Below are positions 1,062 through 55,704 of a stretch of DNA of 64,000 bases, one piece after another. Every line of letters begins with the position of its first letter. Position 1 is the stretch's first letter. The DNA is from Octopus sinensis. Its lineage: Eukaryota. The DNA lies in the NCBI RefSeq assembly GCF_006345805.1, contig NC_042998.1, positions 201,748,001 through 201,812,000 on the forward strand, read 5' to 3'. A program made the position numbers and the translations under genes. A model generated the notes under the pieces. That model was not told where the DNA came from. It worked only from the letters and a program-made list of their open reading frames with translations, and ran no database searches.

Positions 1062-1109
1062 GTCTCTGAGGAAGGAATTTTCCACACATCCCAGAACCAG
1101 CTGTAAGAC
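1062..1109 (+). ncRNA. Degenerate type I hammerhead ribozyme in a PLE-like terminal repeat
   Basis: gtct-CTGAGGA-stem II region-GAAC-cagctg-TA-agac. Stem I is gtct/agac and stem III is the palindrome cagctg. GAAA is mutated to GAAC. Confidence 0.6.
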
Positions 1110-1311
1110 TATCTTTCTCTTTATAAATGTCCAATAAATTCCAGACAACATTGGTTTTCTTGTCATAATTTAGTGACCATATAGATGCTCACACAAGACC
1201 CGCATTAGACTTCTCACTCATATTATTGTCGAACCGAGAGTCTAAACACGGCCCTTCCATCGCATTTACATAGCCTTATCTGCCATCTTAGGTCTTCTAG
1301 ATGCAAACACC

Positions 1312-1350
<39 letters not shown>

Positions 1351-1362
1351 TACATATATATT

Positions 1363-1525
1363 TCTTTACAACCCACAAAGGGCTAAACACAGAGGGGACA
1401 AACAAGGATAGAGAAACAGATTAAGTCGACTACTTCGATCCCAGTGCGTAACTGGTACTTAATTTATCGACCCCGAAATGACGAAAGGCAAAGTTAACCT
1501 CGGCGGAATTTGAAATCAAAACGTA
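1363..1525 (-). mobile_element. SINE family A, head missing, abutting the tandem element
   Basis: Near-identical to the tail half of 38-269. Stops at aacgtaat where the 1529 repeat begins. Confidence 0.85.
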
Positions 1526-1528
1526 ATG

Positions 1529-3121
1529 CACTTAACTTGTCTCTTCCTCTCTCTCTCATTCTTCATTCTCTCTCTCCCTTTCACCATTCTTCATGGTCTC
1601 CTCGCACCATTCCCCTTCTTCTCTCTCTTCCTCTTGCTTCCTCCTCCCCCATTCCCGTCATCCATCTGCGACGATACTTCCGTCGTAACTGCTATCCTGT
1701 CTTTTCTCGCCCGCCTTGTAAGGCTTCTGGTCGACAAATTTTCCTCTCTCGTCTTCCACGATAATCCAGCGTTTGCAATACTTTTTTCGTCTGGCGTTAA
1801 CAGCCCTTCTTATCTTGTTCTCCTTGTCCTGTCTCTCACTGTTATATATTTATTTTTCCACTGTTTATATATATTTTTTACTGTTTATATGTTTGTACTG
1901 TCGTTACCGTCTTGCTTTTTTTTACCCCTCTGCGAAAAGATCTCAGAATTTTAATTGATTTGCTTTTCGCGGAAGGAATTTTTCTTCGAAGTATACGTCT
2001 CGCTTTTATCCTTCGAAACGTTTAGTAGATGAAATCTTAGCGACTGAAGAAGGGGATTTTTTTGTTGTGCTTATTGTCCTGTATCTCTCCTTTTTTTTTT
2101 TTGCTTGTCTTGTTCCTTGTTTGTGTCTATGTGTTTCGTCTCTCTATGTGTTCGACGTCTTTTTGGTGTCCTGTACACATATATGCGTGTATATGTACAT
2201 GTAGAGGTAGGTACGTACATATATGTTTATATATATGCATATATTCTATTTTATTAACATATTATACGACTAAACGCACGCACCCTATTAAGTAAGATTG
2301 TTCTGTTTATCAAGTTAGCCTTGATATTAACTCTCACGCGACTCTGCATCTTTCTTTCTTTCTCTCCCATTCCCTTTTTCGTCTTTTTTCCCTCACTTAA
2401 CTTGTCTCTTCCTCTCTCTCTCATTCTTCATTCTCTCTCTCCTTTCACCATTCTTCATGGTCTCCTCGCACCATTCCCCTTCTTCTCTCTCTTCCTCTTG
2501 CTCCTCCTCCCCCATTCCCGTCATCCATCTGCGACGATACTTCCGTCGTAACTGCTATCCTGTCTTTTCTCGCCCGCCTTGTAAGGCTTCTGGTCGACAA
2601 ATTTTCCCTCTCTCGTCTTCCACGATAATCCAGCGTTTGCAATACTTTTTTCGTCTGGCGTTAACAGCCCTTCTTATCTTGTTCTCCTTGTCCTGTCTCT
2701 CACTGTTATATATTTATTTTTCCACTGTTTATATATATTTTTTACTGTTTATATGTTTGTACTGTCGTTACCGTCTTGCTTTTTTTTACCCCTCTGCGAA
2801 AAGATCTCAGAATTTTAATTGATTTGCTTTTCGCGGGAAGGAATTTTTCTTCGAAGTATACGTCTCGCTTTTATCCTTCGAAACGTTTAGTAGATGAAAT
2901 CTTAGCGACTGAAGAAGGGGATTTTTTTGTTGTGCTTATTGTCCTGTATCTCTCCTTTTTTTTTTTGCTTGTCTTGTTCCTTGGTTTGTGTCTATGTGTT
3001 TCGTCTCTCTATGTGTTCGACGTCTTTTTGGTGTCCTGTACACATATATGCGTGTATATGTACATGTAGAGGTAGGTAGGTACGTACTATATGTTTATAT
3101 ATGCATATATTCTATTTTATT

Positions 3122-3126
<5 letters not shown>
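1529..3126 (+). repeat. Tandem duplication (about 865-bp period) of a pyrimidine-rich non-coding PLE pLTR-like element
   Basis: 1529-2255 and 2394-3126 are nearly identical. The second copy runs into (TA)n(GA)n. A diverged relative lies on the minus strand at about 31720-32460. Confidence 0.85.
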
Positions 3127-3196
<70 letters not shown>

Positions 3197-3207
3197 GAGA
3201 GAGAGAT

Positions 3208-3242
<35 letters not shown>

Positions 3243-3569
3243 AGAGAGTGGACAGATGCTACTGAACAACCCAGGCATTGGGAGTTTTCTGCATTAGTAA
3301 GTGTTGAAGGCTATTGCACGAAATTCTCGGGCCGTATGTAACTCTGTAACTTCTGACGTTTACTAATAAATTATTTCTAATTTTGCCAAAAGTTTTGCTA
3401 AACCATTTGGCTGGTGTGCTAAAAATTCTATTAGCACACTACCTTTTCCCTATTATTGATGATTCTGTGTGTGTGTGTATGTGTGAGTGTATGCGTGTAT
3501 TCATACTTTTAGTTCTCTTTCCGTGTTTGTATCACCAAACCAAGCCAGGTATATTATATAGAGTACAAT

Positions 3570-4280
3570 TCGTTTTTACCAAAGGGGTGCGCAGCGGCCG
3601 TTAGTCTTTGTAAGCTATCTACTTTTATGATTTATCCAAAATATATTTTTCCTCCACAATTTTCAAATGTATTTCGATGCTATGCCTACTGCTTTATCGC
3701 TTATTCTCCCACTAATTCTTAACAATCTCCTAAGATACTGAATTTTGAAACCCTGTATTTTCTAACTATTTTTTGAAGTCTCTTATTCAGGTCTGTACGG
3801 CACTATTCGAAATATATGTGTGCAAAACTTTAAACTTTTTTATTTTCTGATGGATTTTTGCATTGACGTTTAAAAAGATAGCAGCAGATACATCTTTTGA
3901 AATTCTGTTTATTTTCTCTTTACTGTCGCAACATTGATTTGTAATCATACTTCCAGGATCAGAAAATTCCTGCTCCACTTTGACAGTTTGATTATCAATT
4001 ATTACAAAGCTGTCATGATCATATGCTCCCGAGATAATCATTGATTCAGTTCTGTCAAAATTGATAAATAAACCATATTCTTCACGTTTTTTTTTCTTTA
4101 TTTCACTTTCTTTAACAAAATCCGTTCTTTTATATTCCCATCTGTAAAGACAATATGATCAGCATATCTGAGATTACCAACCTTTCTTCTACCGATTTTA
4201 ACTGTACTTTAAATTTATAACACTTCCGTCATCGCATTTTCTGCATAAAGGTTAAACAAAGAAAGAGACGGTATACCTAT
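3570..4280 (-). mobile_element. Decayed RTE-clade LINE, reverse transcriptase 3' part
   Basis: Minus translation gives SLFNLYAENAMTEVL...VKIGRRKVGNLRYADHIVF, followed by IIDNQTVKVEQEFSDPGSMIT. Contains stops and frameshifts. Confidence 0.8.
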
Positions 4281-5693
4281 GTCTAGTTAAAATGTTTATA
4301 TATGCAAGAAGTAATTTTTCACCGTGCTCTAGTTTTCTTAATAATCACTATCTTATATTAAAAGCAGCATCCCTTTTAGTTTCCCTTTCTAACATCCATT
4401 TTATATGTGGCATTCTATACTGAGGAGAATACTAACAGCCTAATGCTATACTGCAATATTTTGGTGTTCTTATACAGAACGTTGTTAAATTTTTGCGGTC
4501 AACAGAACGAAATTTGATTTAATCTAATTAATCAACAATAATTTTAATTTTTCCTCTTTGTGCAGTTCTGTAAATGTTACACCAAAGATTTTAAAGGTTT
4601 ACCTGAAAGCCGTGCCTTTACGCTGATTTACAGAATTTGCATAGATTCAATAAGATCTAGGGGGAAGTGTATTGAAATAAAGCAAGTAGTACATATAGTC
4701 AGAGTATTATTGAGGATATTAAACATTTCCTTCAACGCTTCACCGTGACCGTATTTCCATATCGTGTTTTTTTAAAATCATAATCGTAAGTTGCATTCAC
4801 CAGACTCCAAGATTCAGTGTCTGTCTTAGCTGCGTATGTAAGTGCGGTGGGGTTATTTTGTTGCCTAATACTTAAAGTAATCCTCTTGGTATATGGTATG
4901 TGGAATATATGCGTGCGGGCGAATATGCAAGTTGATTAGATTCGGTAAAAATAGTTTTTTATGACAACGGAAAATACTAAATGTTTATAGATAGTTGCCA
5001 TTTTTAGTCATCGGGGTACTGTGCCATTGAATATGGTTGTATTCCTTGTACAGTGAAGTGCAGTGCAGTACGATTTTTAAATATATATATAAATCAATGC
5101 GAGGGCTAGATTTATACTTAGTAAAATGGGAAATGTTAGGCCTGTACTGAAAATTAACTATTAGTATGTATTGGGGATGCTGAACGAAGAAGATACAGCA
5201 TGGTTGCATAACTTGAAAGGAAGGCTACTGAATCACACCAAATGATATCTTACTGTTTTTAAATTTAATAACAAATGAATAATTTCGAGCTATATATTAT
5301 ATATCTGAATAATTGATTGAATGGCTTATATGCCTAAGTTTTGTCTCTGTAAGTCTGTATTGTATTTTAAAAGAATATATGGTATCCCATTCACAATTAA
5401 ATAATGTATGTTATCAGTAATGTTACAAATAAGTCGCAATCGATCATACTTTCTTGGAGAAGTGAAATTTCTTAAGAAAATATAAAACAGCACCTCAGTT
5501 AGAAGTGCTAAATTATTATAACAATATTTCTCAAGAATCTTCCCTTAATTTTGACTCGAAACATGTTTAAATATAATTCATTTTAGAGCAAATATTTATC
5601 ATTGATACAGCATACGACACGCTTGGTTTAGAGAAGTCTCAAACCAAAAATTTACTCAATATAGCCTCTTGTTTTTGTTGTTTCCGTTGTCAG

Positions 5694-5801
5694 TGATGGT
5701 GGTGGTTTTGGCGTTGCTGTGGTGGTGGGGGTTATGGCTGTGGTGGTAGTGATGGTGGTGGTGGTGGTAGTGGTGGTGGTGGTGGTGGTGGTGGTGGTGG
5801 T
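5694..5801. repeat. (GGT)n microsatellite
   Basis: Seen directly. Followed by a very degraded SINE family A copy (about 5802-5960). Confidence 0.9.
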
Positions 5802-7696: not shown

Positions 7697-7733
<37 letters not shown>

Positions 7734-7779
7734 ATATATTTTTTTTTCCCGCTTGTTTCAGCTTAGAGCTGTGGCCATC

Positions 7780-8055
7780 TCTTTCACTCTTTTACTCTCT
7801 CCTTTACTTGTTTTAGTCATTTCGACTGCATCCATGCTGAAGCACCGCCTTTAGTCGAGCAAAGTGACCCCAGAGCTTATTTTTTGTAAGCCTAGTACTT
7901 ATTTCATCGGTCTATTTTGCCGAACCGCTAAGTTACGGGGACGTAAAAAGACCAGCATCGGTTGTCAAGCGATGTTGGTCTGTTTACGTCCCCGTAACTT
8001 AGCGCTTTGGCAAAAGGGGGCGATAAAATACACATACACACAACATATACACACG

Positions 8056-8091
<36 letters not shown>

Positions 8092-8260
8092 TATATACGA
8101 CGGACCTCTTCCAGTTTCCGTCTACCAAATCTACTCACATGACTTTGGTCGGCCCGAGGCTAGAGTAGAAGACACTTGCCCAAGGTGCCACGCAGCGGAC
8201 TGAACCCAGAACCATGTGGCTGGTAAGCAAGCTACATACCACACAGCCACCTCATACGCC
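7780..8260 (-). mobile_element. tRNA-derived SINE, family B (internal (TA)/(TG) tract), with an internal inversion
   Basis: Homologous to 45936-46338 and 59837-60281. The head contains gtggcaccttgggcaagtgtctt (CORE-like). The tail is (gagtaaaa)n. Confidence 0.9.
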
Positions 8261-8599
8261 TATATATAGATATTTTTTTAATACTTCATGTTTTTACTTC
8301 ACCGGGTAAATTTTTCCCATTGCTTATTTTCTAGGCAATGGAATCGCATAGCATAAATTTCTCATATTGAAGTACTCGACTAATTCTACCCTCAGCAATT
8401 CTTTGTTTTTGTTGTTCGTTTCGAGAATGGTGGAGACAAGTACTGTTCCGTGAGAGAATTTTTTTTTCAAATGTACTCCATCAGGTAAGAAATATACATT
8501 ATTTATTCAAAATGAAAAATATATGTCTTTATGTGTTACTAATAGTTTCATATACTGAGAAATAGTCAAACATATTCTTCAGGCAGAGACCACATATAT

Positions 8600-9460: not shown

Positions 9461-9514
9461 ATGACTGTACCCAATATTTCCCTATTATTCATATTTCTTG
9501 GTTGAATTCTGAAT

Positions 9515-9580
<66 letters not shown>

Positions 9581-10124: not shown

Positions 10125-10300
10125 ATATAGGCGAGGGAACAACAAGCAGGTGTATTAGTTTGACGCTCGGTAAGAATGAAAAAGTATTTCACGTATCGAG
10201 CCCATGCTCTACTACAGAAAGGGTTCAGAATAAAAGAAAAATGGAGATAGATTGATATATATGTATATATATATATTAAAATGGAACAAACACGCAACAG
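10125..10300 (-). mobile_element. Short HHR-bearing repeat (family also at 51966-52172), degenerate
   Basis: Minus strand: ttt-CTGTAGT-agagc-atgg-gctc-GATA-cgt-gaaa...gagcgtcaaactaatacac. Aligns with 52040-52110. Confidence 0.55.
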
Positions 10301-11229: not shown

Positions 11230-11294
11230 GATATAAACTTTATTTCGTTTCATATTTAATACATCATTAAGGGTTTTTCATTATGTACATATCC

Positions 11295-11465
11295 GACAGC
11301 GAGGTGGAAAAGTCGTTAGAATTCCAGGCAAAATTCTTGACAATACGTCCGTCTTTACCTTCTAAGTTCAAATTCCACCGAGGTCGACTTTATCTTTCAA
11401 CTGTTAGGAGTTGATAAAATAAATAGCAGCTACGTTCTAGGATCGACTTACCCCACTCCCTTGCA
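11295..11465 (+). mobile_element. SINE family A, degraded
   Basis: agttcaaattccaccgaggtcgacttt...gataaaataaatagcag matches the family A core. Confidence 0.7.
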
Positions 11466-12567: not shown

Positions 12568-13112
12568 ACTATTTAGCGATTTGAGTTTGGCTGCTCTTTC
12601 AAGTGAGTCGAAAGGTCTATCAGGGCCATTCCTTAATATTGTTAAATGTATATTATATAGTCTGTGACTATTTTTTCTTTCTCACTTGACCGCTGGTGGC
12701 GAAAAACTTTTCTTGAATTTTTTGCTACCCTTATATTTACTAATTAATGATTTTTTGGCTAATTCTGAAATTGTATCAGCAGTTTATATTTGCTGCTGAG
12801 AAGATGGCGCGGTGACGGTGGATTTTGAAAATTTAGAGTATATAAACTCGAGGCTTCGCTGCTGTCGACTCGTGGATATATACTTTCCTTGGCTTCTTTG
12901 CTGATGAGACAGGCCAGTTGTAAATGGATTTAATTTAATTTAATTTAATTGGTTTGCCTTAGTGTGTCGAAACTATGAATAGTCCAAAGATGAAAAGGAT
13001 AAATGTTTTTATTTCTCCTTTAGTCTCAGAATTACTACTATTTAGCGGTTTGAGTTTGGCTGCTCTTTCAAGTGAGTCGAACGGCCTATCAGGGCCATTC
13101 CTTAATATTGTT
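12568..13112 (+). mobile_element. Retrozyme-like / non-autonomous PLE element, 469-bp unit with 76-bp terminal direct repeats
   Basis: 12568-12643 and 13037-13112 are near-identical. The element is non-coding, contains an intact HHR, and is flanked by (CA)n and (TA)n(GA)n. Confidence 0.8.
12895..12990 (+). ncRNA. Type I hammerhead ribozyme, canonical core
   Basis: Stem I tctttg(12895-12900)/caaaga(12985-12990); CTGATGA at 12901-12907; stem II gaca.../tgtc extended by aggc/gcct; GAAA at 12969-12972; stem III cta-tgaa-tag; GUC cleavage triplet ending at 12984. Confidence 0.85.
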
Positions 13113-13129
13113 GTATATATATATATATG

Positions 13130-13611: not shown

Positions 13612-13870
13612 CATCGAAAAATACTTTAGGAATTAGAACCCAGGTTAGATTTCCCCAAGACACCTGATGAAGGCTGGGGGGTATATCAGCCGAAGCGATG
13701 TGCTAACAACAAAGAAGATAAAGACAAATATCCGTACAATGTAAATAATGTAAGTAATGTTCAAAATTAAAGTATTTAAGCTCTGGTGTCGATTCATTTG
13801 ATAAAAATTTCAAGGCGATGCCCACCATACCCCATGTCTAATGACTGAAACAAGTAAAAGAGTAAAAGAG
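13185..13870 (+). mobile_element. Old SINE family B copy split by a nested insertion
   Basis: 13185-13458 matches the family B head and middle. 13761-13870 resumes the family B tail (...atgactgaaacaagtaaaagag). Confidence 0.75.
13459..13760 (+). mobile_element. tRNA-headed SINE with (AAT)n linker and a 3' hammerhead motif
   Basis: A-box-like ggcatagtggttaagagc, anticodon-like loop ctACTaa, B box gttcgatttc (13503-13512). Then acac-CTGATGA-aggctg...cagcc-GAAG-cg-at-gtgc (13660-13703) and an aatgta repeat tail. Confidence 0.75.
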
Positions 13871-13904
13871 TATATATATATATATATATAGCGAGAGAGA
13901 GAGG

Positions 13905-14316
13905 AGTTGTATACTGTCAACTTAATGTGACAGTCCCATAGAGGAAATTACTCAACGCTATTTAGCCCTGGGAAGTATCAACGCTTCCTGTCGGCTATAA
14001 CACATTTCCTGTGTTCTTATGTTTACAAAGGGGAGACAAGCACCCCCAACAGCTAGGCCTGCATCCAGAGACATGACATGTTTCTGAGTCTCGCTTGTCA
14101 TCAGTCTATGCTACTCCTGACTGATGACGAGTACGACTCAGAGACCTGTCTCTGGTTGCAGGCCTAGCTGTTGGGGGTGCTTGTCTCCCCTTTGTAAACA
14201 TAAGGACACAGGAAATGTGTCAAAGCCGACAGGAAGCGTTGATGCTTCCTAGGGCTAAATAGCGGTGGTGTAATTCCCTCTATGGGACTGTCACGTTAAG
14301 TTGACATTATACAACT
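13905..14316. repeat. About 200-bp-arm inverted repeat with an HHR motif at the inner end of each arm
   Basis: 13905-14106 is the reverse complement of 14119-14316, with a 12-nt loop. HHR motifs at 14116-14155 (+) and 14065-14109 (-). Confidence 0.9.
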
Positions 14317-14376
14317 GCTCTATCGTTCCACCGCCGCTCATATCACTCTGAGATATTTAGAAATTTAATATTTCTA

Positions 14377-14462
<86 letters not shown>

Positions 14463-14463
<1 letters not shown>

Positions 14464-14803
14464 CAATTGCAGCATGGAAGGTGTTTATAAGCCATTAAGA
14501 AACACACAAAAACCGTTCGATTTACTTCAACATTTAAGTCTAATTTGTCAAAATATTTTCGTCGCTTTAAGACTGCGACCTGTTCACTGACAAAAATCCG
14601 TGCTGCATCTCTTTTTGTCAGTGAACAGATCGCGGATTTTAGCGACGAAAATATTTTGACAAATTAAACTTAAATGTTGAAGTGAATCGAACGGCTTTTG
14701 TGTGTTTCTTAAATGGCTTATAAACACCTTCCACGCTGCAATTGTTTTCGTTTCAGCACACGATCACAGATCAAATTGCTTGCTATGCGAGTACATCTCC
14801 GTA
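14463..14803. repeat. 134-bp-arm inverted repeat of a short element with an HHR-like fold
   Basis: 14463-14596 pairs with 14612-14745. The right arm extends to 14803. Solo copy at 43384-43590 (-). Embedded in (TA)n. Confidence 0.9.
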
Positions 14804-14857
14804 AATATATATATATATATATTATATATATATATATATTAATATATATATATATAT

Positions 14858-21038: not shown

Positions 21039-21444
21039 ACTCTTTTACTCTTTTACTTGTTTCAGTCATTTGACTGCGGCCATGTTAGAGCACCGTCTTT
21101 AGTCGAACGAATCGAACCTAGGACGTATTCTTTGTTTGCCTAGTACTTATTCTATCGGGCTCTTTTGCCGAACCACTAATTTACGGCGACGTAAACACAC
21201 CTGCATTGGTTGTCAAGTGATGTTGGGGGGACAAGCACAGACATACAAACATATACACGCATACATATATACATATACATATATACGACGGGATTCTTTC
21301 AGTTTCTGTCTACCAAATCTACTCACAAGGCTTTGGTCGGACCGAGGCTATAGTAGAAGACACTTGCCCAAGGTGCCACGCAGTGGAAATGGACCCGGAA
21401 CCACGTGGCTGGTAAGCAAGCTACTTACCACACAGCCACTCTTG
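21039..21444 (-). mobile_element. SINE family B
   Basis: Homology to the other family B copies along its full length. Confidence 0.9.
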
Positions 21445-39133: not shown

Positions 39134-42100
39134 ACTGCCTTTCCACAGCTTGTAACACTGGCGATGTACTACTGTGTCAGCTGTTCATTATCAATGAGCT
39201 AAGGTGATACCTCTTATTTTTCGAGCATTCTTTCGGAGTATTCGAGCGGTTCCAAGCAGTGCTGTTTTCTGCAAGTGCTCCAACCTTATTGCTGCCCCTA
39301 TTTGTTCGCAAAGGTTTTACTCAAAGTTCTCACTACTAACTTTTTCATCGTCCACAACTGTTTTCCCTCTCAAGCTAACCTGTCATATCTATCGACTTTT
39401 CTTTCTTCCTTAACGCATACCTCTTGTCAGTTTGGCGTGTTATATCGATGATCCAGCATAGTTTGGTTTGTTTCTCAATTAAGATTATATGTGCCTTCCT
39501 ATTCTCTATCTCATGGTAGCACTGAATCATAAAATCCAATAGGATCTTTGCATTTCTAGTTTCGATGTTGCCTTCAGGTTTGTGGTCGTACCAATTTTTT
39601 GCTCTCTCAAGTTCATACTAGCTGCAAATTTTTCAAGGGACAGGCCTGGCTATATTGTTGAGGTATCTCTTATATTCCTTCTGGGATAGTGTCGTACTCT
39701 GGCGGGTAATATGCCATACGTTTTCACCATTTTGTCCACAGATTCTGCACTCATCACTTTCTGATGTGTTGTCTACTATGAATTTCATGTAGTTTGTTCT
39801 TAGAGCTTCCTCTCGGACAGCACAGATTAGAGCTTCCGTTTCCGGTTTTATATCACTTTTAGTCATCCACAGCCATGTCTTTTTCCTGTCTTTCTTATCT
39901 TCAACATCCCTATGAAATTGTCCATGCATCTTTTCTGTGTCACTTTTTTGGGGAAGTTAGCAACTTCTTTGTTTTTTCTGTCTAAGATGTTTAGTTCGTC
40001 TACTGTCCATTCGATGACCCCTGCTCCATATCTGAGGAGCGAAAACGCCCAGTTGTTGATAGATATCTTTATTCATATTCCGTCCGTATGACTTCGACTT
40101 AAGGTTCAGTCTCAGTCTGCGCAAGTACTCCACCTTAAATTTTTCTGTCATTTGTGTCTCCATCAATGTATCCATTTCCAAAATCACCAAGTACTTGTAG
40201 CCCGACTTCTTCTTCTTCTTCTTCGTCTCTTCTTCTTCTTCTTCTTCTTCTTCTTCTTCTTCTTCTTCTTCTTCTTCTTCTTCTTCTTCTTCTTCTCTTC
40301 TTCTTCTTCTTCTTCTCCTCCTCCTTCTTCTCCTCTTCTTCCTCCTCCTCCTCCTCCTTCTTCTTCTTCTTCTTCTTCTTCTTCTTCTTCTTCTTCTTCT
40401 TCTTCTTCTTCTCTTCCTCCTCCTTCCCCCGATGGCATCGATAACACACCCATACATTTCATTTTGCCCCTCTTCAAGACTAACACACTACACTTTCTCA
40501 GTCCGAACTCCATTCTGATATCAGAACTGAAGGTATACACCGTATCAACGAGGGAACTGACTTGGGTTTCATCTCCAACATAAAGTTGAAGATCATCCAT
40601 GAATAACAAATGGATTACTTTTTTGGCGGTCTTAGAATACATACCCAGATTTTACTTTCCTCAGACTCAGTGTTAGTGGTATCAAGCACTGTACAAAGAT
40701 CAGTGGAGACAGTCCGTCCCCTTGGAAGGTGCCCCTCCTGATTTCTAGTGTCCCTAAACTTCCTTCGTATGTTGTTATGTCCGTGCCCCAATTCTTTATG
40801 CTTTTTCCAAGTAATCACTCAACATTCGATGCAATGCCAAATAGGTTCATACACTCCATAATCCAACAATATGGGATCATATCGTATGTCTTACGATAAT
40901 CGATCCATGACATGGCTAAGTTACTTTCCTCCTCTTGCAGTCTCTAGGTGCAGTTTTGTCTATCAGGAGTTGATCCTTGGTACCTCTACACTTATTCATG
41001 CAACCCTTCTGCCCATGTGACAGGACCACATTTTTTTCCAGATGTTCACTCTGCGAGTATTTCAGTCATGAATTTCCGCATAAGTGGCAAACAGGATATC
41101 ATCCTATAATTGTCTACGGTATTGCTTTTTCGATGGTTTTGAAGCATAGCACTGTCCTACCCAATATCAACCACTCTGGTGTTACTTGGTCAGCATTTAA
41201 CAAGGTACTGATTTGCTCAGCTATGCGTGCATGACATTCACCAAATCTTTTGATCTAGTAGCCTGAACTCCATCTGGTTCCGCGGCCTTCCAGTTGCTCA
41301 TTCCTTTGCTAATTTCCTTCACCTCCCTAACTTAAATGACTATTTGTGCCTGTTTTGGACAGACTATTATTTATTCCAGTTCTTGCAACCATTCAGCATC
41401 CTGCTTGTGCTCCTTGGCTTTGTTCCAGATGCCACTCCAAAACCTTTGACTTTCAACGTTATCTGGTATCCATTTTCATTTGTACACTATCCATTTATTT
41501 CTTTATTAAATCTCTTCTGATGCACTCTGAATAATCTATTCTGGTTGTAACCCTTCATTCTTTGGTCGTATCTTACCATCTTTGCTTTCGTTGCAACGAG
41601 TTGTTGGCTCAGTTCCTCCATTACCACTTTCAGGCCCTTTCTTTCAATATCATACTTCCTTTTCAGCGTCCTGTATTTTTGTTTGCTTTGAAGCTCCACT
41701 TTCTCTTTTCGGTATAACACAGAAATTTCCTTCGAGAGCATAACTAACCCTGCCTCTGTTCTTCTTTTCCACCATTGGTCTTTTCTTTTATCACTCCGAT
41801 TGTATTTCTTTTTCTTGACATCAACACCCACATTTTATTTGTTTCTGTGATGTTGTTTGTTCTTATGTATTTCATAATTTCATTGACATTGTTCGTTTCT
41901 TGGATCAACCATTTTAAGGTTGCAAATTATGCCGCTGGTGTTCACCTGTAGCCTTGTCTTTATCCTGCTATAGATTGCCTTTTGTTCATCTGTCATATCA
42001 CCATTAGTTTTATTGTCTTCTTTTAGATCATCTGTATGTCTATCATCAAGTCAACTACCACTGTTCCTTTCCTGTGCTACGAGATTTCTTTTATTAGTAA

Positions 42101-42424: not shown

Positions 42425-42795
42425 AAGCTGCCTGTGGCGGCCATACTGGGGCATAACTTCTCGCCGAACAAATTGATCCCAGGAATTATTCTTTATAATT
42501 CTAGTACTTATTCTATCCGTCTCTTTCGCCGAAACGCTACGTTACGCTAATGCAAATACCCCAACGTCGATGATGGGGCGAAAAACACAGCCACACACAC
42601 GTATACACATACACATCCACCCACACGCATATATATATATACGACGGGCTTCTCTCAGTTTCCTTTACCAAAATTCTCTCACAAAATTTTGTTCTACTCG
42701 AGGCTATCCTAGAAGACACTGATACCATGAAGTGAGTCTGAACCTGGAACCATGTGGTTGAGAAGCAAGCTTCTTACCACACAGCACAGCCACGC
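42425..42795 (-). mobile_element. SINE family B, diverged
   Basis: Homology to family B. Head-to-head with the next copy across (TA)n. Confidence 0.85.
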
Positions 42796-42854
42796 TATAT
42801 ATATATAGATGTATGCGTGTGAGTGCGTGTATATATATATATATATATAAACTC

Positions 42855-42911
<57 letters not shown>

Positions 42912-42932
42912 CATATAGAATTTATATATATA

Positions 42933-43093
42933 TGGCTGTGTGGTAAGTAGCTTGCTAACCAACCACATGGTTCCGGGTTCAGTCGCACTGCGTGGCATCT
43001 TGGGCAAGTATCTTCTGCTATAGCCCCGGGCCGACCAATGCCTTGTGAGTGGATTTGGTAGACGGAAACTGAAAGAAACCTGTCGTATATATG

Positions 43094-43165
<72 letters not shown>

Positions 43166-43372
43166 TGTGTCTATGTTTGTTCCCCTAGCATTGCTTACAA
43201 AAACCGATGCTGGTGTGTTTACGTCCCCGTCACTTAGCGGTTCGGCAAAATAGACCGATAGAATAAGTACTGGGCTTACAAAGAATAAGTCCCTGGGTCG
43301 ATTTGCTCGACTAAAGGCGGTGCTCCAGCATGGCCGCAGTCAAATGACTGAAATAAGTAAAAGAGTAAAAGA
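42933..43372 (+). mobile_element. SINE family B
   Basis: Homology along its full length. Confidence 0.92.
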
Positions 43373-43383
43373 ATATATATATA

Positions 43384-43590
43384 TTACGGAGATGTACTCG
43401 CATAGCAAGTGATTTGATCCGAGATCGTGAGCTGAAACGAAAACAATTGCAGCGTGGAAGGTGTTTGTAAGCCATTTAAGAAACACACAAAAGCCGTTCG
43501 ATTCTCTTCAACATTTATGTTTAATTTGTCAAAATATTTTCGTCGCTAAAATCCGCGACCTGTTCACTGATAAAAGTCCGTGCTGCATCA
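43384..43590 (-). mobile_element. Solo copy of the GTGAACA HHR-like element
   Basis: Reverse complement of 14612-14803. Ends at the same ccgtgctgcatc seen at 14598-14609. (TA)-rich flanks. Confidence 0.85.
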
Positions 43591-45099: not shown

Positions 45100-45485
45100 T
45101 ACCGGTGAGTGTGTTATATTATAAGGCACAAAAAGAAAATGACTCTTTTCAGACGCAATAGAATATACCAGTCACGTCTCGATCTATAAAACGTTTGTGA
45201 ATAATTGCTTGGTAGACTAGTGATGTTAGTTGTAGGTTGGTAGTGTTATGTATTATGTTGTGTTCATGTTAAGTCGTGAATGATATTTATTGATGAAAGT
45301 TGCTTCTTTATTCATTCTTTGTGTACTGGGATGTCCTGTGAACATTGATAGAAGGGGAAAATTAGGAAATTAAGATTAAGGTCCCTAGCACACCTATCTA
45401 TGTGTTCATTGACCTGTATTTTCTGTACTGTGGGTGGCGGATTTGTTCTTTGTGAAGAGTGGTTCTTCGACGGAGTGCTACTAAC
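45100..45485 (-). mobile_element. Penelope-like element 3' fragment (GIY-YIG endonuclease C-terminus + decayed pLTR)
   Basis: Minus translation with frameshifts: LRRRTTLHKEQIRHPQYRK/QVNEHIDRCARDLNLNFLIFPFYQC/QRMNKEATFINKYHSRLN. Confidence 0.75.
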
Positions 45486-45857: not shown

Positions 45858-45935
<78 letters not shown>

Positions 45936-45936
<1 letters not shown>

Positions 45937-46338
45937 GGCGCAGGAGTGGCTGTGTGGTAAGTAGCTTGCTAACCAACCACATGGTTCCGGGTTCAGTCCC
46001 ACTGCGTGGCACCTTGGGCAAGTGTCTTGTGCTATAGCCTCGAGCCGACCAATGCCTTGTGAGTGGATTTGGTAGACGGAAACTAAAAGAAGCCCGTCGT
46101 ATATATGTATATATATATATGTGTGTGCGTGTATGTTTGTGTGTCTGTGTTTGTCCCCCTAGCATTGCTTGACAACCGATGCTGGTGTGTTTACGTCCCC
46201 GTTTCATTAGCGGTTCGGCAAAAGAGACCGATAGAATAAGTACTGGGCTTACAAAAGAATAAGTCCCGGGTCGAGTTGCTCGATTTAAGGCGGTGCTCCA
46301 GCATGGCCGCAGTCAAATGACTGAAACAAGTAAAAGAG
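45936..46338 (+). mobile_element. SINE family B, full length, young
   Basis: Starts aggcgcaggagtggctgtgtggtaag, has a B-box-like gggttcagtccc, and is inserted in (TA)n. Confidence 0.93.
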
Positions 46339-46360
46339 TATATATATATACATATACAGA

Positions 46361-47010
46361 CGAGGGGGTGTTCATTAATGATTTCTCCTGTCGCACTTCC
46401 AATAAATGCAGGAAAGGAAACTTGTACAGGTTTCATTATACATATTTCTACATGTCATATTGGAAATTTCAGCTCTCCACAAGTATTCGTTTGCTGAAAT
46501 GGTCTAAGGTGTTGTAATGGAGGTAATTGAATATAGGTTAGAGATCAAGTTCTTATACATTAAGAGAGACTTCCCATGAGATGAAAGAAATTTATGGTGA
46601 CGATGCACCATCACACGAAGTAGTCAAGCACTGGTATCGCATGTTCAAATGTGATCAGAAATCGGTAGATATTGCTCCAATTCATTGATGAGTACACTCC
46701 TCCATTCATGGCGACACCATCCAGAGAATGGAGCTACCATTTTGGAGGACAGCCTCATAAATATTACACTACTAGCGCAAGAAGTGAAGATAAGAGTAGG
46801 GTCCGTGGAAAAAAAATCATTCACGACAACGTGCACATGCGACAATCTGCACGATGGATTCCCCAGATGCTCACACCTTTTCAGAAGGAGGGAAGAGTCA
46901 AATGCTCCCAGGCTAATATGGTAAAGTGCCAAGAAAACAAGGAGGATTTTTTCAACTGACTAATCATACAGGGTCCATCACTATGATCTTGAGATCACAA
47001 CGACGTCGAA
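46361..47010 (+). mobile_element. mariner-type transposon, 5' half, pseudogenised
   Basis: MEVIEYRLEIKFL, EIYGDDAPSHEVVKHWYRMFK (HTH), ARWIPQMLT (WVPHEL motif) and VHHYD. The cgagggg start resembles a mariner TIR. Confidence 0.85.
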
Positions 47011-47191
47011 TCCACAAGAGTAAACAAGAGAGACAGAAACAGGCAGAAACAAGGAACATGCCCCTTGTACTTGAATAGTATGCAAATATACTTTGTATAA
47101 AACTTTTCTTTTTAATTTTTTTCCAAAATTTAATTGTTATTCGAAACTGACACTACTCTCATCAGGATGTTTTATATATATATATGTAATC

Positions 47192-47608
47192 AATCAAAAT
47201 AAGCAACAAGAATGACTCCGGTAATTTGGTACAATTGTTTCGCACTACATCATTTTATTAAAGGTTTTAAGCATTACAGCAGATTTAAGATGCTGAGTGC
47301 TCATCAGCCAATTATATAGGTTTTCCATTAATGCAAAAGCTTTCAAATCAAGTAGCAACATTATAGAGAAGGTAGATATGCAAACAAAGATGTAGATTTA
47401 AATTTTAAGAACGTAAATCTGCTGTAATACTTATAACTTTTAATAAAATGATGTAGTGCGAAAGAATTGTACCAAATTACCGGGGTCAATCGTGTTGCTT
47501 ATTTTGATTATAATCACCCCGCGAATTTTTATGGATAACACCATACAAAATTCTGGTGCATCTAAATTAAGTACCATATTCATTCGAATCTAAATTTTTG
47601 CTGAATTT
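47192..47608. repeat. 96-bp-arm inverted repeat in (TA)n with a partial HHR motif
   Basis: 47192-47287 pairs with 47414-47509 across a 126-bp spacer. CTGATGA lies on the minus strand at 47301-47307. Confidence 0.8.
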
Positions 47609-47632
47609 ATATATATATATAATATATATATA

Positions 47633-47730
<98 letters not shown>

Positions 47731-49644: not shown

Positions 49645-50020
49645 GGATGGAAGCACTCCGTCGGTTACAACGACGAGGGTTCCGGTTGATCCGAATCAAC
49701 GGAACAGCCTGCTCGTGAAATTAACGTGTAAGTGGCTGAGCACTCCACAGACACGTGTACCCTTAACGTAGTTCTCGGGGATATTCAGCGTGACACAGAG
49801 TGTGACAAGGCCGGCCCTTTGAAATACAGGTACAACAGAAACAGGAAGTAAGAGTGAGAGAAACTTGTGGTGAAAGAGTACACCATCCCCTGTCGGAGAG
49901 TCGTGGAGCTTTTAGGTGTTTTCGCTCAATAAACACTCACAACCACCGGTCGGGGAATCGAAACCGCGATCCTATGACCGCGAGTCCGCTGCCCTAACCA
50001 CTGGGCCATTGCGCCTCCAC
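49645..50020 (-). mobile_element. SINE family C, full length
   Basis: 10-bp TSD taaacacaat at 49635-49644 and 50021-50030. Confidence 0.93.
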
Positions 50021-50040
50021 TAAACACAATAAATATTATT

Positions 50041-50240
50041 TGTCAACATAGCATGACAGTCCTGGTTTCGGACTAATTATGCTGTAATTTAGCCCCATGA
50101 GATATCGTCTCCAGCAGGCTATATGGCACGATCTGTGGCCTTACATCTTCGAACAAGGGAATCTAGCACCCCCACGAAACTCAAAACAATATCTGGGTAT
50201 CGCGAATTCTGGGTTATTTCACTTCATCGGCACAGAATAA
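50041..50240 (-). mobile_element. Diverged relative of the 13905 hairpin element, with a degenerate HHR
   Basis: Shares tgtcaac..tgacagtcc, atttagccc, ggctata and agcaccccca with 13915-14050. Minus strand reads ctgtg-CCGATGA-...-GAAT-tcgcga-TA-cccag at 50193-50235. Confidence 0.6.
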
Positions 50241-50304
50241 TTGTTCGGCTGGAGGTGACGCTGCCACACTCCCGTTCTAAATATATGCGTGCGTGCGTGT
50301 GTGT

Positions 50305-50350
<46 letters not shown>

Positions 50351-51904
50351 CTGTGTGCTCGTGTGTCTATGTGTTTCTGTGTTTGCACTTCTGTGTGTGT
50401 GTGTACAAAAACAAACCTATCAAACAAAAATTTATGAATCTAGTTACCAAGAATTCAAAGGCTTTCATGTGTCTACTGTACATGTCATTAACATTTACTC
50501 CATTCGTGTAAATTACTATAAAATAAACAACAGGCAGAGGAATGAAATATTCTTTAACAGATATTATGTAACGCATTCATAAGACATCGTATGCGTGACT
50601 AAATCTTTCTTCCATCAATGTATTGAGCTCCATTGCTTTTTCCTTTCAGTTACATTGCATTGCGAACGTTGTGTTTCTCTTAACATTTCAGATATGGTAT
50701 CAAGTGAAAAATAAAATGAATTAGAAAGATAAATAAATAGTGTTTAAATGATAAAGTAACGCAGAGCATTCCAGATGAAAACCAGTCAGTTTTATTAATG
50801 CTGCGTTTTAAATGCAGAGGTGAAAATAAGATACTCCGTACAATTTTATCTTTGCTAATATTTGTTGCATGCCTTATCCCTGTTGCAATGGCGTCTAATC
50901 TTGAAGTGCGCACCATTCCTGTCTATGCCACAAAAACAAAAGGGAAAAGTACAATTTTGGAACTATATTATAACTTTTACGGAAATTCAATGATCGACTC
51001 AAACTGTAAATATTAGAAAAGCTCACGTCCTCCAAACAACAAATTTATGATTATTTGGTAGTTATAGCGAAAATATAAAAGCTTTTAACACGATTTAACA
51101 GCAACAAAATAAATTATAAATAGAAGCCAGATAAGAAGAGTGTTTGCAAGTGTTGACAAATTTCTGCACCTGATTAACCAGCAGCTCCTGAACGAAGCAG
51201 AATACAAACGGAGTAAATATTTTGCATGTATGAGATGTGCTTGGTTTACACACAAATGTAGCTGTGTTTAACGATAATAGTCCATTTCCTTCGACTGTTG
51301 ATTTCTTACTAGAGTAGCATTGTTAGAACACCCAGTTAATGTGTGTTGAAAATAGCGCAGAGCACTCGTTAATGGAAACGGTAAAACCATTTGAACACCA
51401 GACATGTTTCAAAACTGTATATTAATACGGTGTGATAAATTATCATTTAGGATTTGAGGTTAAGACTTTTACTGTTAAAGACGCGTTTATACAAAAGTTA
51501 TACAAATGCAGAGTGGTCTGATCCTATTTGGTGTACGACATTCTTTAAACAAATGCTCTTTAGTTTTTAGAACGATGAAATTTTATACAGCAAATGTGTA
51601 TTTATGCATGAATTAGGTATGGATTAGCAGTGTTTATCGCCACTTTAACGTGAATGTTCTCTGAGAACCGACGCTACTACTATTTTAATCACACGATTCT
51701 AGCTGGTGTTTCAGTGCTCATTCGCACTCAGTATCCATTGCCAGCGGGTATTATGTTATAAAGTTCAAATGAGAGAAATGCGATCCGGATAGTTAATTTC
51801 TCACTTTTCTTATGATATCTTTATTGATTTAACTTAAAACTTTTATAACATACACATATACATCTATGCATATATACATATATATATATATATATATATG
51901 CGCT

Positions 51905-51965
<61 letters not shown>

Positions 51966-51967
<2 letters not shown>

Positions 51968-52166
51968 GTGACCGCGTGTGTATCGTTGGCGATTTTATTT
52001 CTCCGTCTTCCCTTCCTTGGCCATTTCCATTTTGTATATTTCTGATGAAAAGTTCCGCTCGAAACGTTAAATCCTCTTTCTTTCCTTTCCTGAGCGTCTA
52101 ATAACACTATAATTGTTCCACGTCCACGAGTTGTTGTGCTTTCACTTTGTGTTTTCATGTTTGGAT

Positions 52167-52172
<6 letters not shown>
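51966..52172 (+). mobile_element. About 200-bp element with a minimal type I HHR, inserted in (TA)n
   Basis: attt-CTGATGA(52042-52048)-aaagt-tcc-gctc-GAAA(52061-52064)-cg-TT-aaat. Stem III is the palindrome aacgtt. Confidence 0.75.
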
Positions 52173-52207
<35 letters not shown>

Positions 52208-54486
52208 CAAACACAAAAGAGATACCCGAAGAATAGGATATCTGACTCGCTAGAAAGAGCAGTTAAAACTCCAAGTCACCAATTGTTGTAATTTTTTCTT
52301 TCTCCCTAGACCACTGGTAACTAAGAATTTTTCTTTGAATATTCTTGCTACCCTAAGATATATATATATACATATATAAATATATATATATATAAACTGA
52401 TGTTTGAGAGATCTTGCCTCACTTAATTTGTAGTAGTCGAGTGTGTTTGAGCTGGATGTGTTCGTGGAAACAGGTTTTCATTAGATCCTTTGACTAAGTC
52501 CTAGTTGTTAGTGATTTACAGATCGGCGTAGGTAACAGTGAGTGGGTGATGTCGTGGTCCAGTATTTAAGTCGGGCTACGCTAAAGCTTTGTTAGGTTGC
52601 TAGAGGTTGCTAGTTGTTGAGTAAGAGTAACTTCGGTTCCGATTGTATCTTTTCATGTTCAACAAGTCTGTGGAGGCATTTGAGTGCCAGGTGTAATTAT
52701 AATAAGAGCATATAATTGCTGCAATTGGTGGAGTAAACTCGTCCGGAGTTGTTAATGCATGTATCGCATGGGTTTCTTGGTGCAGAAGTAGGGCAAAGAA
52801 TTCGAAGAAATTTGGGAAACCTTGTAGGTGGAAGTATTTAGGCACGTGAATGTTGCGGAAAATATCTGCAGTAAGACTTTACTTCAAACGTGGTTTGAGG
52901 GATAAGACTTTTTAACCTGTCTCGACATCTTTCTCCGATAGTATGAATAATACTCTGACCGTTGCATAATTGTCCTGCGAATGAAGGACACGTCTTGTAG
53001 CTTGTGTGAAGCATTGTAACACAGAAGTAAATAATGGAATATTAAAGAAAGCAAGAATCATATAAGACGAAAATATTTAATAATGATTATGCATTCTAGG
53101 CGAAAACCCATCATCAACAGAAAAAATTAAGAAATGTGAACCTACAGAGGACCGGCCATCTTGATTGTTGTGTGGACAGTGACTCTGTGGTGTCCGAGTG
53201 TGTAGTGGTGATATCAATGGGTTATCGTTGTAGCAATAGCCATTACCAAAATGATAGCAGCAATATCAGAAGCTGTATCGTGTTTGGCGGCGTACAGCTG
53301 TCAAATTGTAGCAGTGGAACTACACTGCTTCTATTAAAGCTATGGGTGGTAGAGGTATACTCAGTAGTTGTTGCTGTAAAGACACTGGAACGGAAATATT
53401 ACACTATTGATAGTCGTAACCGTGATGTTGGCGATGATTGGAGCAAATCTGAAGAAGGCGATAAGCTTACATGAAAGATATTAGTATTTTTGATAATTTA
53501 GAATGTAAATATATACAAGTGCTGCAATGCATCATAGATTAAGTAAACTAAAACTACATTCTTCTCAGGCTTCAGTTTTTTCCCTATCTTCGCTTGTGAG
53601 ATTACCAACTTACACACTTAGGACTTGTGCTTTTGTTTTAGTCCTTCTGCAAGATTTGTTTTGTAATGATTGAGCCGTTATTTATATTCTGTAACAGAGA
53701 CGGAAGAAGTATGATCCCCAGAGGGTAAGCATGATATATTCGTTTCTGACACACGATATTCAAATAAAGAAATATTAAAGGGTTACATTTGTGATTCACC
53801 ACTTAAAGTCCACATCTTTGCAGATATATATAAAAAAAGCACTGATACGCACGCACATACATTCATAATGTAACAAAAGAAATCTTCATATCAAGAATAA
53901 AAAATACAAATTGAACCAGCATTACGAATCAATGCATTTTAAGACCTCACTCTATGGAATCACAATTTTTGTAGCCTGAACAATGTAACTCTATCCGTCA
54001 AGAGGAAATCTAATTTCACGAAATGTTATCACGAATCGAGCTCAAAGCAAAACAATTTTCAAAGGCCAGCCTATATTTGCCTACTGCAAGGAACAGAACA
54101 ACGTTATCTAATAAAAAGGAAATATTATCGAACATTGAAAGTGTGTGTTAGTTACCATCATTTTTTTCAAAATATTTCAGCAGAATGCTACGTCTGACGA
54201 CTTATAACTCTCAAATTTCAAAATATAGAAGAAAATCTGTACGCGTCAATCAGTAGGCGTTAATGGATAGGAAAAGAATTTTGCTAGAGTTAAAAAAAAA
54301 GTTCCTAAAATATTCTGTCCCTCTCCCTCTCATTGTACACCTAAACATGTAAACACAGGCATACATGCACTGATATACATACATGCACATCCCACACACG
54401 TATATATATACTTCTGCACATATACACGGAGTATATAAATAAAGATATTGAAATAGCTATATATAGTTAAATATATCAATACAACT

Positions 54487-54533
<47 letters not shown>

Positions 54534-54558
54534 CACTTACGTCTGTGTGTGTATGTAG

Positions 54559-54608
<50 letters not shown>

Positions 54609-54619
54609 TAGATACATAG

Positions 54620-54636
54620 ATAGACAGATAGATAGT

Positions 54637-54700
<64 letters not shown>
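54620..54700. repeat. (TAGA)n microsatellite
   Basis: Seen directly. Confidence 0.95.
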
Positions 54701-55619
54701 AATTTTATTGATATATAGATCGGAAATGAAATACGAAGGTAATGTTAGTGTATAAAATTTAAACCAAGTATTCTAAGAAATACAGAATCATGTTTCTCTC
54801 TCCCTCTCTCCATCTCCACCCACACCACTCTCTCTCTCTTAGTTTTATGCATATAAACGTGAATAAAGTTTCTCGGAGCAAAGAAAATGCTTTCAATAAA
54901 CATACCAAAACGTATGTAAACTTACATTATATATTTTCGCGTTCCTCAACAAATTTTTTCCTGTTAAAAGATTGGAACTTCCTGTAGGACTGGTATTGTG
55001 GTCTGGTAACGAAGTATTTTTTTATATAGGTAGCTCATGTTCTCAGTTAGCTAAAATAATTTCTAATCATTACTCTATATTAGGGATAGGAATAAACGTA
55101 ACAGTACAGGGCTTAGTAAATTAATTTGGTATCTAAAAGACCACAATAAACAATTTAATTTAGATTCGTTGATTCTCTCAATTTCCATACCTTATGATAA
55201 AGGTAAGGGATTCTGCTTTCTCTGTAATTCTGAACTATTTTTTTATTCCTTTTTCTAAAAATATCCTTGTAAACACGGTTATAGAGTGTGCATACCGGTG
55301 TAAACATTGGCAGAAACACACCTTAATTCATATAAGTGTTATCTATCATTATATATAATTTAAACATTAATTTTCTTCTTACATTTCAGATTCACTAGAT
55401 ATATCGTTTCCAAAAATTTAGGGCTTTACTTAATTTACATATTGTTATATATTTCTCATTTATTTGTTGTTTTCCTTTACCCCTCTTCTTTATATATGCT
55501 ACATTTAACATTATATCCTCTATCGTTTTTTTAAACAAACTTTATAGCGTTCAGTTAAACACTATACATATCCAACATATTCTGTTAAAATGTCTTATTG
55601 ACTAGTTTCATTTCTTCAT

Positions 55620-55704
55620 TTCCTTGAAGAGAAGATTGCATCGTCTTACACCATTTTATTCCTTTGGAATAATATCAGTTATATCTTCGAAACATGTACC
55701 GGAA
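55620..55704 (+). ncRNA. Degenerate type I HHR in a PLE pLTR-like region (about 55300-55870)
   Basis: ttcc-TTGAAGA-gaagat...atcttc-GAAA-catg-TA-ccggaa. Perfect 6-bp stem II and palindromic stem III. C3 is mutated and the stem I register is shifted. Confidence 0.55.

What the first reader, a model, noticed from the sequence alone, without database searches (positions are those of the whole stretch)
1062..55704. A community of distinct hammerhead-bearing non-coding elements in one 64-kb window
Seen: type I HHR motifs, intact or decayed, at 1062(+), 10187(-), 12895(+), 13660(+), 14065(-), 14116(+), 50193(-), 52038(+) and 55620(+). HHR-like variants occur at 1957, 14614 and 43525. They belong to at least 6 sequence families, mostly in (TA)n/(CA)n tracts. 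Most have a tiny palindromic stem III (aacgtt, cagctg, acatgt, tcgcga, aatatt). Established: minimal type I HHRs with palindromic stem III mark Penelope-like element pLTRs and animal retrozymes, and can cleave as dimers. Inference: a diversified set of non-autonomous ribozyme RNAs mobilised by PLE RT/GIY-YIG proteins, whose remnants lie at 45265-45485 and 56860-57180.
Basis: partly seen in the sequence, partly recalled or inferred. Interest (0 to 1): 0.8.

Follow-up and report, generated by a model that had tools for sequence, protein, structure and literature searches.

The report
Scrambled hammerhead ribozyme in mobile repeat
Most of the self-cutting RNA motifs in this window are ordinary leftovers of Penelope-type jumping elements, but one repeat with thousands of copies in this animal genome has the hammerhead's three building blocks in a scrambled order so far reported only from environmental RNA, and it likely still cuts itself.

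Summary
They fall into 11 families (counting one missed site at 47307). The window is not special: strict type I motifs run at about 15 per Mb genome-wide. The families are a known mix of 5'-truncated coding Penelope-like elements (PLEs) and non-coding tandem retrozyme-like units.

The new result is the site dismissed as 'HHR-like' at 1957. It is a non-circularly permuted, type-SGC hammerhead (cleavage block, then GAAA, then CUGAAGA), present twice in a young 865-bp tandem, non-coding element. The GAAA-then-CUGA order matches 4,821 times in the genome against 0 in the control. Stems I and III covary across subfamilies: 6 of the top 8 of 4,572 position pairs are predicted pairs. Insertions share a fixed 3' end at (TA)n, variable 5' ends, tandem units and inversions, as PLE-mobilised elements do.

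Type-SGC ribozymes were reported only from metatranscriptomes, and the published descriptors miss these copies. Cleavage is untested, stem II is weak and has a covarying competitor, and no driver PLE was linked. The 14614/43525 family is a natural G3-C8 core swap.

The parts
1529..3133 (+). Young non-coding tandem element (865-bp unit, about 1.85 units), 5'-truncated, ending at (TA)n; carries the type-SGC hammerhead
   Evidence: Internal repeat 98%; 40 scored genomic copies 96-100%; fixed 3' end; no Pfam hit for 3 unit ORFs, no PLE tblastn hit
1972..2063 (+). Type-SGC hammerhead copy 1: S block 1993-2004 (predicted cleavage after C1999), G block 2010-2021, C block 2039-2055; upstream competitor strand 1972-1976
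2837..2928 (+). Type-SGC hammerhead copy 2 (predicted cleavage after 2864)
1062..1109 (+). Decayed type I HHR; family has an A.A mismatch at the base of stem II; no tandem unit seen
10186..10220 (-). Decayed type I HHR of a family with an A6U core (CUGUNGA); related to the 52038 family
12568..13128 (+). Retrozyme-like element, 469-bp unit with terminal direct repeat; intact type I HHR at 12896-12989
13660..13703 (+). Decayed minimal type I HHR of an abundant family
13897..14394 (.). Inverted pair of a 354-366-bp unit family; HHRs at 14072-14108(-) and 14117-14154(+), C.A mismatch at the base of stem II
14463..14816 (.). Inverted pair of type I HHRs with swapped G3-C8 core (GUGAACA): 14544-14594(-) and 14614-14663(+)
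43525..43574 (-). Third copy of the G3-C8 family
45268..45481 (-). GIY-YIG C-terminal remnant of a Neptune-type PLE; no hammerhead found downstream
47173..47560 (-).
50193..50235 (-). Decayed type I HHR of a tandem family with a unit of about 350 bp
52038..52072 (+). Minimal type I HHR with one stem II mutation; short element of about 215 bp
55003..55740 (+). 5'-truncated coding PLE: GIY-YIG C-terminus 55073-55234, then type I HHR 55619-55704
56840..57200 (-). Claimed PLE RT remnant: resemblance by eye only, not confirmed
   Evidence: One genomic match only, itself; no significant protein hit

Best explanation
The 865-bp tandem repeat at 1529-3133 is a non-coding mobile element, likely copied by Penelope-type reverse transcriptase, whose RNA has the hammerhead blocks in the non-circular order S-G-C and is predicted to fold into a double-pseudoknot ribozyme that likely cuts after C1999. 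Shown: block order, conserved core letters, covarying stems I and III, an extended stem III, thousands of dispersed copies, a fixed 3' end at (TA)n, variable 5' ends, tandem units and inversions. Inferred: read-through transcripts of tandem copies are cut once per unit to give monomers of about 865 nt that can circularise. A PLE RT/GIY-YIG complex would nick TA-rich DNA, start at one internal site of the unit and copy 0.5 to more than 2.5 units. An upstream strand that pairs with the stem II strand would hold the ribozyme off until the 3' tail is made, or until a protein refolds it. The other ten families are ordinary PLE 3' ends and retrozyme-like units.
For: A six-permutation descriptor finds only SGC hits in the window (2); shuffled 800 kb gives a mean of 0.1. 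The G-then-C pattern matches 4,821 times against 0 for the reversed control; this subfamily's S+G string matches 1,110 times. On the first 30 pattern hits, where the S block was not specified, 19 of 30 pair with their own upstream strand against 221 of 870 cross-pairings. In alignment A1 (85 rows) 86.9% of cells pair and 213 cells show double changes, against 77+-8 shuffled and 14-78 slid. Anchored by block, stem I pairs hold in 77-80 of 85 rows and stem III pairs in 67-81 of 85; position 17 is non-G in 84 of 85. Six of the top 8 of 4,572 position pairs are predicted ones. 27 of 85 rows pass the published SGC descriptor once CUGAUGA(U)G is relaxed to CUGANGA(N)G. In the young family, core and stems show 0 substitutions in 1,115 cells against 0.7% nearby. 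14 of 14 uncensored insertions share one 3' end. An optional tail of about 45 nt occurs in other subfamilies, like the PLE tail (PMC8557442, PMC11167929). 9 of 30 unselected copies have 5' ends 7-36 nt upstream of G12, inside the ribozyme; 4 lie just 3' of the cut site (post hoc P about 0.04).
Against: No cleavage data. Stem II is weak (C-G, U.G, U.G, C-G), with one double change from a single lineage. The upstream strand pairs the same bases better (79-84 of 85 per pair, 3 double changes, also from that one lineage). The window's own subfamily has only 3 stem III pairs beyond A15.1-U16.1 before a U.U mismatch. The stem I-II helix that Eckert et al. found essential is not supported (own -2.3 against cross -2.4 kcal/mol). 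Extended stem III runs directly into stem I, which needs a sharp bend or a dimer. Naive mutual information put only 3 predicted pairs in its top 30. G and C block invariance in A1 is built in by the pattern, and 11 of 94 rows were left out as truncated, deleted or unrelated. Older subfamilies show no excess conservation of the S block (11.5% against 6.7%; 3.9% against 5.2%). No PLE ORF lies colinear with any SGC locus within 1.5 kb, and there is no DNA match to 20 Neptune-type loci. PLE hammerheads can be slow, protein-assisted or dispensable (PMC4209133, PMC11167929), and 8 of 9 Xenopus retrozyme dimers did not cleave (10.64898/2026.07.22.740005).
Confidence: 0.65

Rival explanations
1. The SGC fold is real but is used mainly as a structural or protein-binding signal, or is a slow relic; it does not cleave at a useful rate.
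For: Weak stem II, stronger competing helix, no stem I-II helix. HHR mutants did not affect PLE insertion in vitro (PMC11167929). An abundant sister family carries a non-canonical A6U core.
Against: The core boxes, A15.1-U16.1 and the NUH rule are kept across subfamilies about 70-75% identical. Crude on- and off-state duplex sums lie within about 1.3 kcal/mol in 7 of 7 groups.
Confidence: 0.17
2. The blocks assemble between two units or two molecules (one unit's C block docking on another's S+G hairpin), as dimer-cleaving PLE hammerheads do, rather than as a one-molecule double pseudoknot.
For: Extended stem III ends 0-3 nt from stem I, which is awkward in a monomer. Copies are often tandem. 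Metazoan PLE HHRs act as dimers (PMC4209133, PMC6765202).
Against: All three blocks lie within about 65 nt. Stem III is not palindromic in most subfamilies. A bend at the purine-rich internal loop could allow a monomer (inference). Published SGC ribozymes cleave in cis.
Confidence: 0.13
3. The motif is a chance by-product: conserved words in a satellite-like repeat, with apparent covariation inherited from a few ancestors.
For: Rows are related, with only about 7-10 lineages; the shuffle control ignores relatedness.
Against: Double changes occur at 8 of 10 stem I and III pairs, in different lineages, exactly where hammerhead geometry requires them. Slid controls fall to 40-60% paired.
Confidence: 0.05

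Closest known systems
Type-SGC hammerhead ribozymes (HRIMA-1 and SGC variant; Eckert et al. 2023, PMC10085705)
   Same: Block order S-G-C, a short linker from stem I to stem II, one extra base between A9 and G10.1, G10.1-C11.1, full core, NUH site.
   Different: Those come only from assembled metatranscriptomes (supplementary note 1); this one is chromosomal, in thousands of copies of an animal mobile element. Stem sequences are unlike the two SGC template oligos seen. Stem II is G.U-rich; stem III is extended; an outer helix and a competitor strand replace the stem I-II helix. 0 of 85 rows pass the descriptors as published.
Animal non-LTR retrozymes (PMC7229834; bioRxiv 10.64898/2026.07.22.740005)
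   Same: Non-coding tandem units with one hammerhead per unit, dispersed as monomers, dimers and multimers, in a genome with PLEs. The 12895, 50193 and 14116 families fit directly.
   Different: Defined by type I hammerheads, usually 150-450-bp units (range 51-972). The 1957 superfamily has SGC topology and 732-940-bp units. Circular RNA is not shown here.
Penelope-like element pLTR minimal hammerheads (PMC4209133; PMC8557442)
   Same: Palindromic stem III, extra base after A9, single dispersed motifs, inverted 5' pieces, microsatellite targets, optional tail. The 55620 and 47307 families follow GIY-YIG ORFs.
   Different: Natural G3-C8 and A6U cores and 1x1 mismatches at the base of stem II occur here; the text seen reports U3-A8. 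The SGC family has no ORF.

Membership tests
Type-SGC hammerhead | Block order S, G, C | tested here: met
Type-SGC hammerhead | Core CUGANGA, GAAA, A15.1-U16.1, H17 | tested here: met
   20 of 20 homology-retrieved young loci pass; U16.1 in 81 of 85, H17 non-G in 84 of 85
Type-SGC hammerhead | Stems I and III with covariation | tested here: met
   (not tree-corrected)
Type-SGC hammerhead | Stem II with covariation | tested here: inconclusive
   93.5% paired, but G.U-rich, one double change, and a competing helix
Type-SGC hammerhead | Helix joining stems I and II (seen in HRIMA-1) | tested here: not met
   Own and cross duplex energies equal; not a member of the HRIMA-1 motif itself
Type-SGC hammerhead | Self-cleavage at the predicted bond | not testable with these tools
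   Only contigs were available
Non-LTR retrozyme (1957 family) | Tandem non-coding unit with a hammerhead in each unit | tested here: met
Non-LTR retrozyme (1957 family) | Hammerhead is type I | tested here: not met
   No type I hit in the 1957 alignment or at 1529-3133; works like a retrozyme, not filed as a canonical one
Non-LTR retrozyme (1957 family) | Expressed as linear and circular unit-length RNA | not testable with these tools
   No run on record as RNA
Non-LTR retrozyme (12895, 50193, 14116 families) | Tandem unit with type I hammerhead and no ORF | tested here: met
Penelope-like element | RT plus GIY-YIG ORF upstream of the hammerhead | tested here: met
   GIY-YIG end shown for 55620 and 47307; 1 of 25 for 1062, continuity unproven; none for the SGC family
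Penelope-like element | Insertion hallmarks: 5' truncation, partial tandems, inversions, tail, microsatellite targets | tested here: met
Penelope-like element | Sequence link between the SGC unit and an autonomous pLTR | tested here: not met
   No match to 20 Neptune-type loci; other PLE clades not fetched

The most novel reading that the evidence does not exclude
An old, diversified superfamily of retrozyme-like elements in this animal genome (at least 4,800 copies, roughly 17,000 by sampling) runs on an active non-circularly permuted hammerhead gated by a four-strand swap. It would be the first family of such ribozymes in a cellular chromosome, either arising by block rearrangement inside a retroelement or captured from a viroid-like RNA, and missed so far because genome screens use type I-III descriptors.
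Probability: 0.55. Interest if true: 0.9.

Novelty: new variant of a known kind. Interest (0 to 1): 0.8.

Why it matters
Non-circular RNA permutations are known from one study of anonymous metatranscriptome RNAs, which left their hosts, role and origin open. A family in an animal genome with young and old subfamilies gives a named biological setting and natural variants for structure and kinetics. It also gives a record in which the origin of the permutation can be traced. It implies that ribozyme censuses of animal genomes miss a class of elements. The G3-C8 family (3,809 exact matches) is a natural version of a swap that the searches found described as an engineered rescue mutant. The rest of the finding is expected PLE biology.

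Tried and rejected
- Window as a hotspot: rejected.
- Rfam: no hammerhead among listed matches, even on five loci with intact type I motifs, so its silence is uninformative.
- 1957 as decayed type I or as type II: rejected once relatives showed the S block upstream.
- 14614 as a plain palindromic MITE: rejected.
- 56860-57180 as PLE RT: unconfirmed.
- Driver search: a young Neptune-type PLE (93-98% identical copies, RVT_1 E 4.5e-7) has no CUGANGA box in the 3' sequence read and no DNA similarity to the SGC unit. The query was in a mixed frame.
- Outside the genome: 4 viral and 107 metagenome pattern hits; 0 of 111 pass the SGC descriptor.
- Expression: no RNA holder listed. Contigs of four runs (three guessed RNA, one of unknown kind) cover the unit; three show the head-to-tail joint and one 862-nt contig spans the unit. 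The same joint exists in DNA, so this is not evidence.
- Naive mutual information was dominated by relatedness.
- Minimum-energy folding ignores pseudoknots (unit z -5.0) and was not used.
- Earlier scan notes: none.
- Lunse et al. 2017 was not held, so its variants and supplements are unseen and may include G3-C8, A6U or cephalopod motifs.
Full report
Setting. The window lies in a 2.72-Gb assembly of 13,516 contigs, rich in TA/CA microsatellites. The repeat landscape suggests an octopod cephalopod; that label is recalled and was not tested.

The observation. My first descriptor (loop II up to 60 nt) found only 47307(-). A wider strict descriptor found 12901(+) and 47307(-), against 0.05 per shuffle. 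To see whether the decayed sites descend from real hammerheads I fetched 20-30 relatives for each of nine sites. Their majorities restore full motifs. Strict passes were 19 of 25 (12895), 14 of 25 (52038), 10 of 20 (55620) and 22 of 30 (47307). The 1062, 14116 and 50193 families gave 0 passes only because they have a 1x1 mismatch at the base of stem II that this descriptor disallows. The 13660 family is canonical and the 10187 family reads CUGUNGA. The 14614/43525 family reads GUGAACA with a 7-bp stem I and 5-bp stem II, which is a C3-G8 to G3-C8 swap; it has 3,809 exact genomic matches and 0 in the control. The engineered double mutant partly rescues a PLE hammerhead (PMC11167929).

The window is typical. 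Eighty unselected 10-kb stretches hold 12 strict motifs against 0-3 in shuffles, and 18 relaxed motifs against about 1.3. The commonest families gave 7-11 BLAST hits each in that sample.

Two known kinds are mixed. The 55620 and 47307 families are 3' ends of coding PLEs behind a GIY-YIG domain. The 12895, 50193 and 14116 families are closed non-coding units found in partial tandems, as defined for non-LTR retrozymes. The remnant at 45268-45481 belongs to a Neptune-type RT-linker-GIY-YIG family (clade by recalled linker motif) with no hammerhead seen downstream. The remnant claimed at 56860-57180 was not confirmed.

The 1957 site. It lies in an 865-bp unit repeated at 1529 and 2394, with 40 scored copies at 96-100%. 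Diverged relatives conserve a GAAA box before a CUGANGA box. Upstream of both lies a block holding the second stem III strand, the UH cleavage dinucleotide and a stem I strand, which changes in step with its partners. This is the S-G-C order of Eckert et al.. A descriptor for all six permutations gave 2 SGC hits and nothing else in the window. In the unselected sample it gave 3 SGC hits (2 family members, 1 likely chance) against a shuffled mean of 0.1. Among homology-retrieved loci it passed 20 of 20 young ones, 3 of 30 and 13 of 30 older ones. The G-then-C pattern occurs 4,821 times. Five unit homologues in 800 kb (plus L076) scale to roughly 17,000 copies, a rough figure.

Covariation. Because the pattern did not specify the S block, the first 30 hits test it: 19 pair with their own upstream strand, against 25% of cross-pairings. 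Most failures are truncated or carry point changes. From 94 motif strings I aligned 83 as locus references plus L312 and one repeated young-family row, 85 rows in all; those left out were truncated, deleted or unrelated. MAFFT shifted the S block of 14 rows by two columns, so the tool's figures are conservative: 86.9% paired, 213 double-change cells, 0 of 500 shuffles reaching either. That control ignores relatedness. With blocks anchored and clusters weighted, predicted stem I and III pairs rank 1, 3, 4, 5, 6 and 8 of 4,572; the other predicted pairs rank 23-328, most of them nearly invariant. An extension of stem III is supported (own -6.2 against cross -3.6 kcal/mol); a stem I-II helix is not.

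The weak point is stem II. It is kept (93.5% paired) but G.U-rich. A strand upstream of the whole motif pairs the same five bases in 79-84 of 85 rows, with three compensatory changes in one lineage. That strand can instead pair with the 3' tail. Crude duplex sums for the two arrangements differ by 1.3 kcal/mol or less in seven groups. I read this as a likely off/on strand swap; it could also mean a mostly inactive RNA.

Mobility. In the young family 14 of 14 uncensored insertions end at one point before (TA)n, start anywhere, and span 464 to more than 2,183 bp. Other subfamilies have 732-940-bp periods, inversions and an optional tail. These are PLE hallmarks in the papers read, so PLE mobilisation is inferred; no driver was linked. 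Many insertions run across the cut site, so templates include uncut multimers or circles. 5' ends are modestly concentrated inside the ribozyme, which fits either cleavage or RT stalling.

Novelty. Eckert et al. state that all their rearranged hammerheads come from metatranscriptomes, although they searched RefSeq 85. Their descriptors require CUGAUGAG or CUGAUGAUG. That excludes all 85 rows; relaxing the core alone admits 27, relaxing the spacer too admits 33, and allowing a 3-bp stem III admits 46. Full-text searches returned no report of a permuted hammerhead in an animal genome or retroelement (related searches). Subscription journals and repeat databases were not covered.

Papers seen. 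PMC10085705: abstract, parts 2-4 of 8, sections 5, 16 and the first part of 18, supplement parts 1 and 8, two supplement searches. PMC4209133: parts 1-2 of 4. bioRxiv 10.64898/2026.07.22.740005: parts 1-3 of 5, supplements closed. PMC11167929: abstract and main text. PMC7229834, PMC8557442, PMC6765202, PMC6962438: passages. Lunse et al. 2017: title in reference lists only.

Verdict. The finding as written is real but ordinary. Inside it is a well-supported structural case for a type-SGC hammerhead in a high-copy animal mobile element. My odds: fold about 0.85, activity about 0.65, PLE mobilisation about 0.8.

Noticed in passing
window 14544-14663 and 43525-43574: Type I hammerhead family with a natural G3-C8 core swap and UUU cleavage triplet; 3,809 exact genomic matches, often as close inverted pairs.
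   Followed up: partly
window 10186-10220; L054, L057, L067, L093: Abundant short family whose core is CUGUNGA (A6U) with position 7 free; some relatives of 52038 read CCGACGA (L037, L058, L062).
   Followed up: partly
L400, L401, L403, L412: Young Neptune-type PLE (97-98% identical copies) in (TA)n with inverted 5' pieces and no CUGANGA box in the 3' sequence read; candidate driver.
   Followed up: partly
L006 near 1660-1680: Short telomere-like repeat fill at the inversion junction of a 47307-family insertion.
   Followed up: no
window 12896-12989; L046, L067, L096: Group of type I hammerheads with long loop II containing (ATTTA)n and 10-12-nt near-palindromic stem III.
   Followed up: partly
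L070, L071: Possible U3-A8 core variants (UUGANAA) with good stems, 3 hits against 0.65 in shuffles.
   Followed up: no
window 1988-1991 and 2024-2029: Purine-rich internal loop in extended stem III resembling a loop E/bulged-G motif in several subfamilies (recalled resemblance).
   Followed up: no
window 39375-40651 (-): LINE-type remnant with RVT_1 and zf-RVT similarity below cut-off, interrupted by a (CTT)n tract.
   Followed up: no
window 46540-46960 (+): Mariner-like transposase remnant by eye; no Pfam hit for the ORF tested.
   Followed up: no
window 7786-8270, 21040-21440, 42437-43390, 45926-46356, 59826-60276: Several copies of one abundant SINE-like family.
   Followed up: no
window 47140-47171 (-): Isolated CUGAUGA with a degenerate GAAA box next to the 47307 element.
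   Followed up: no
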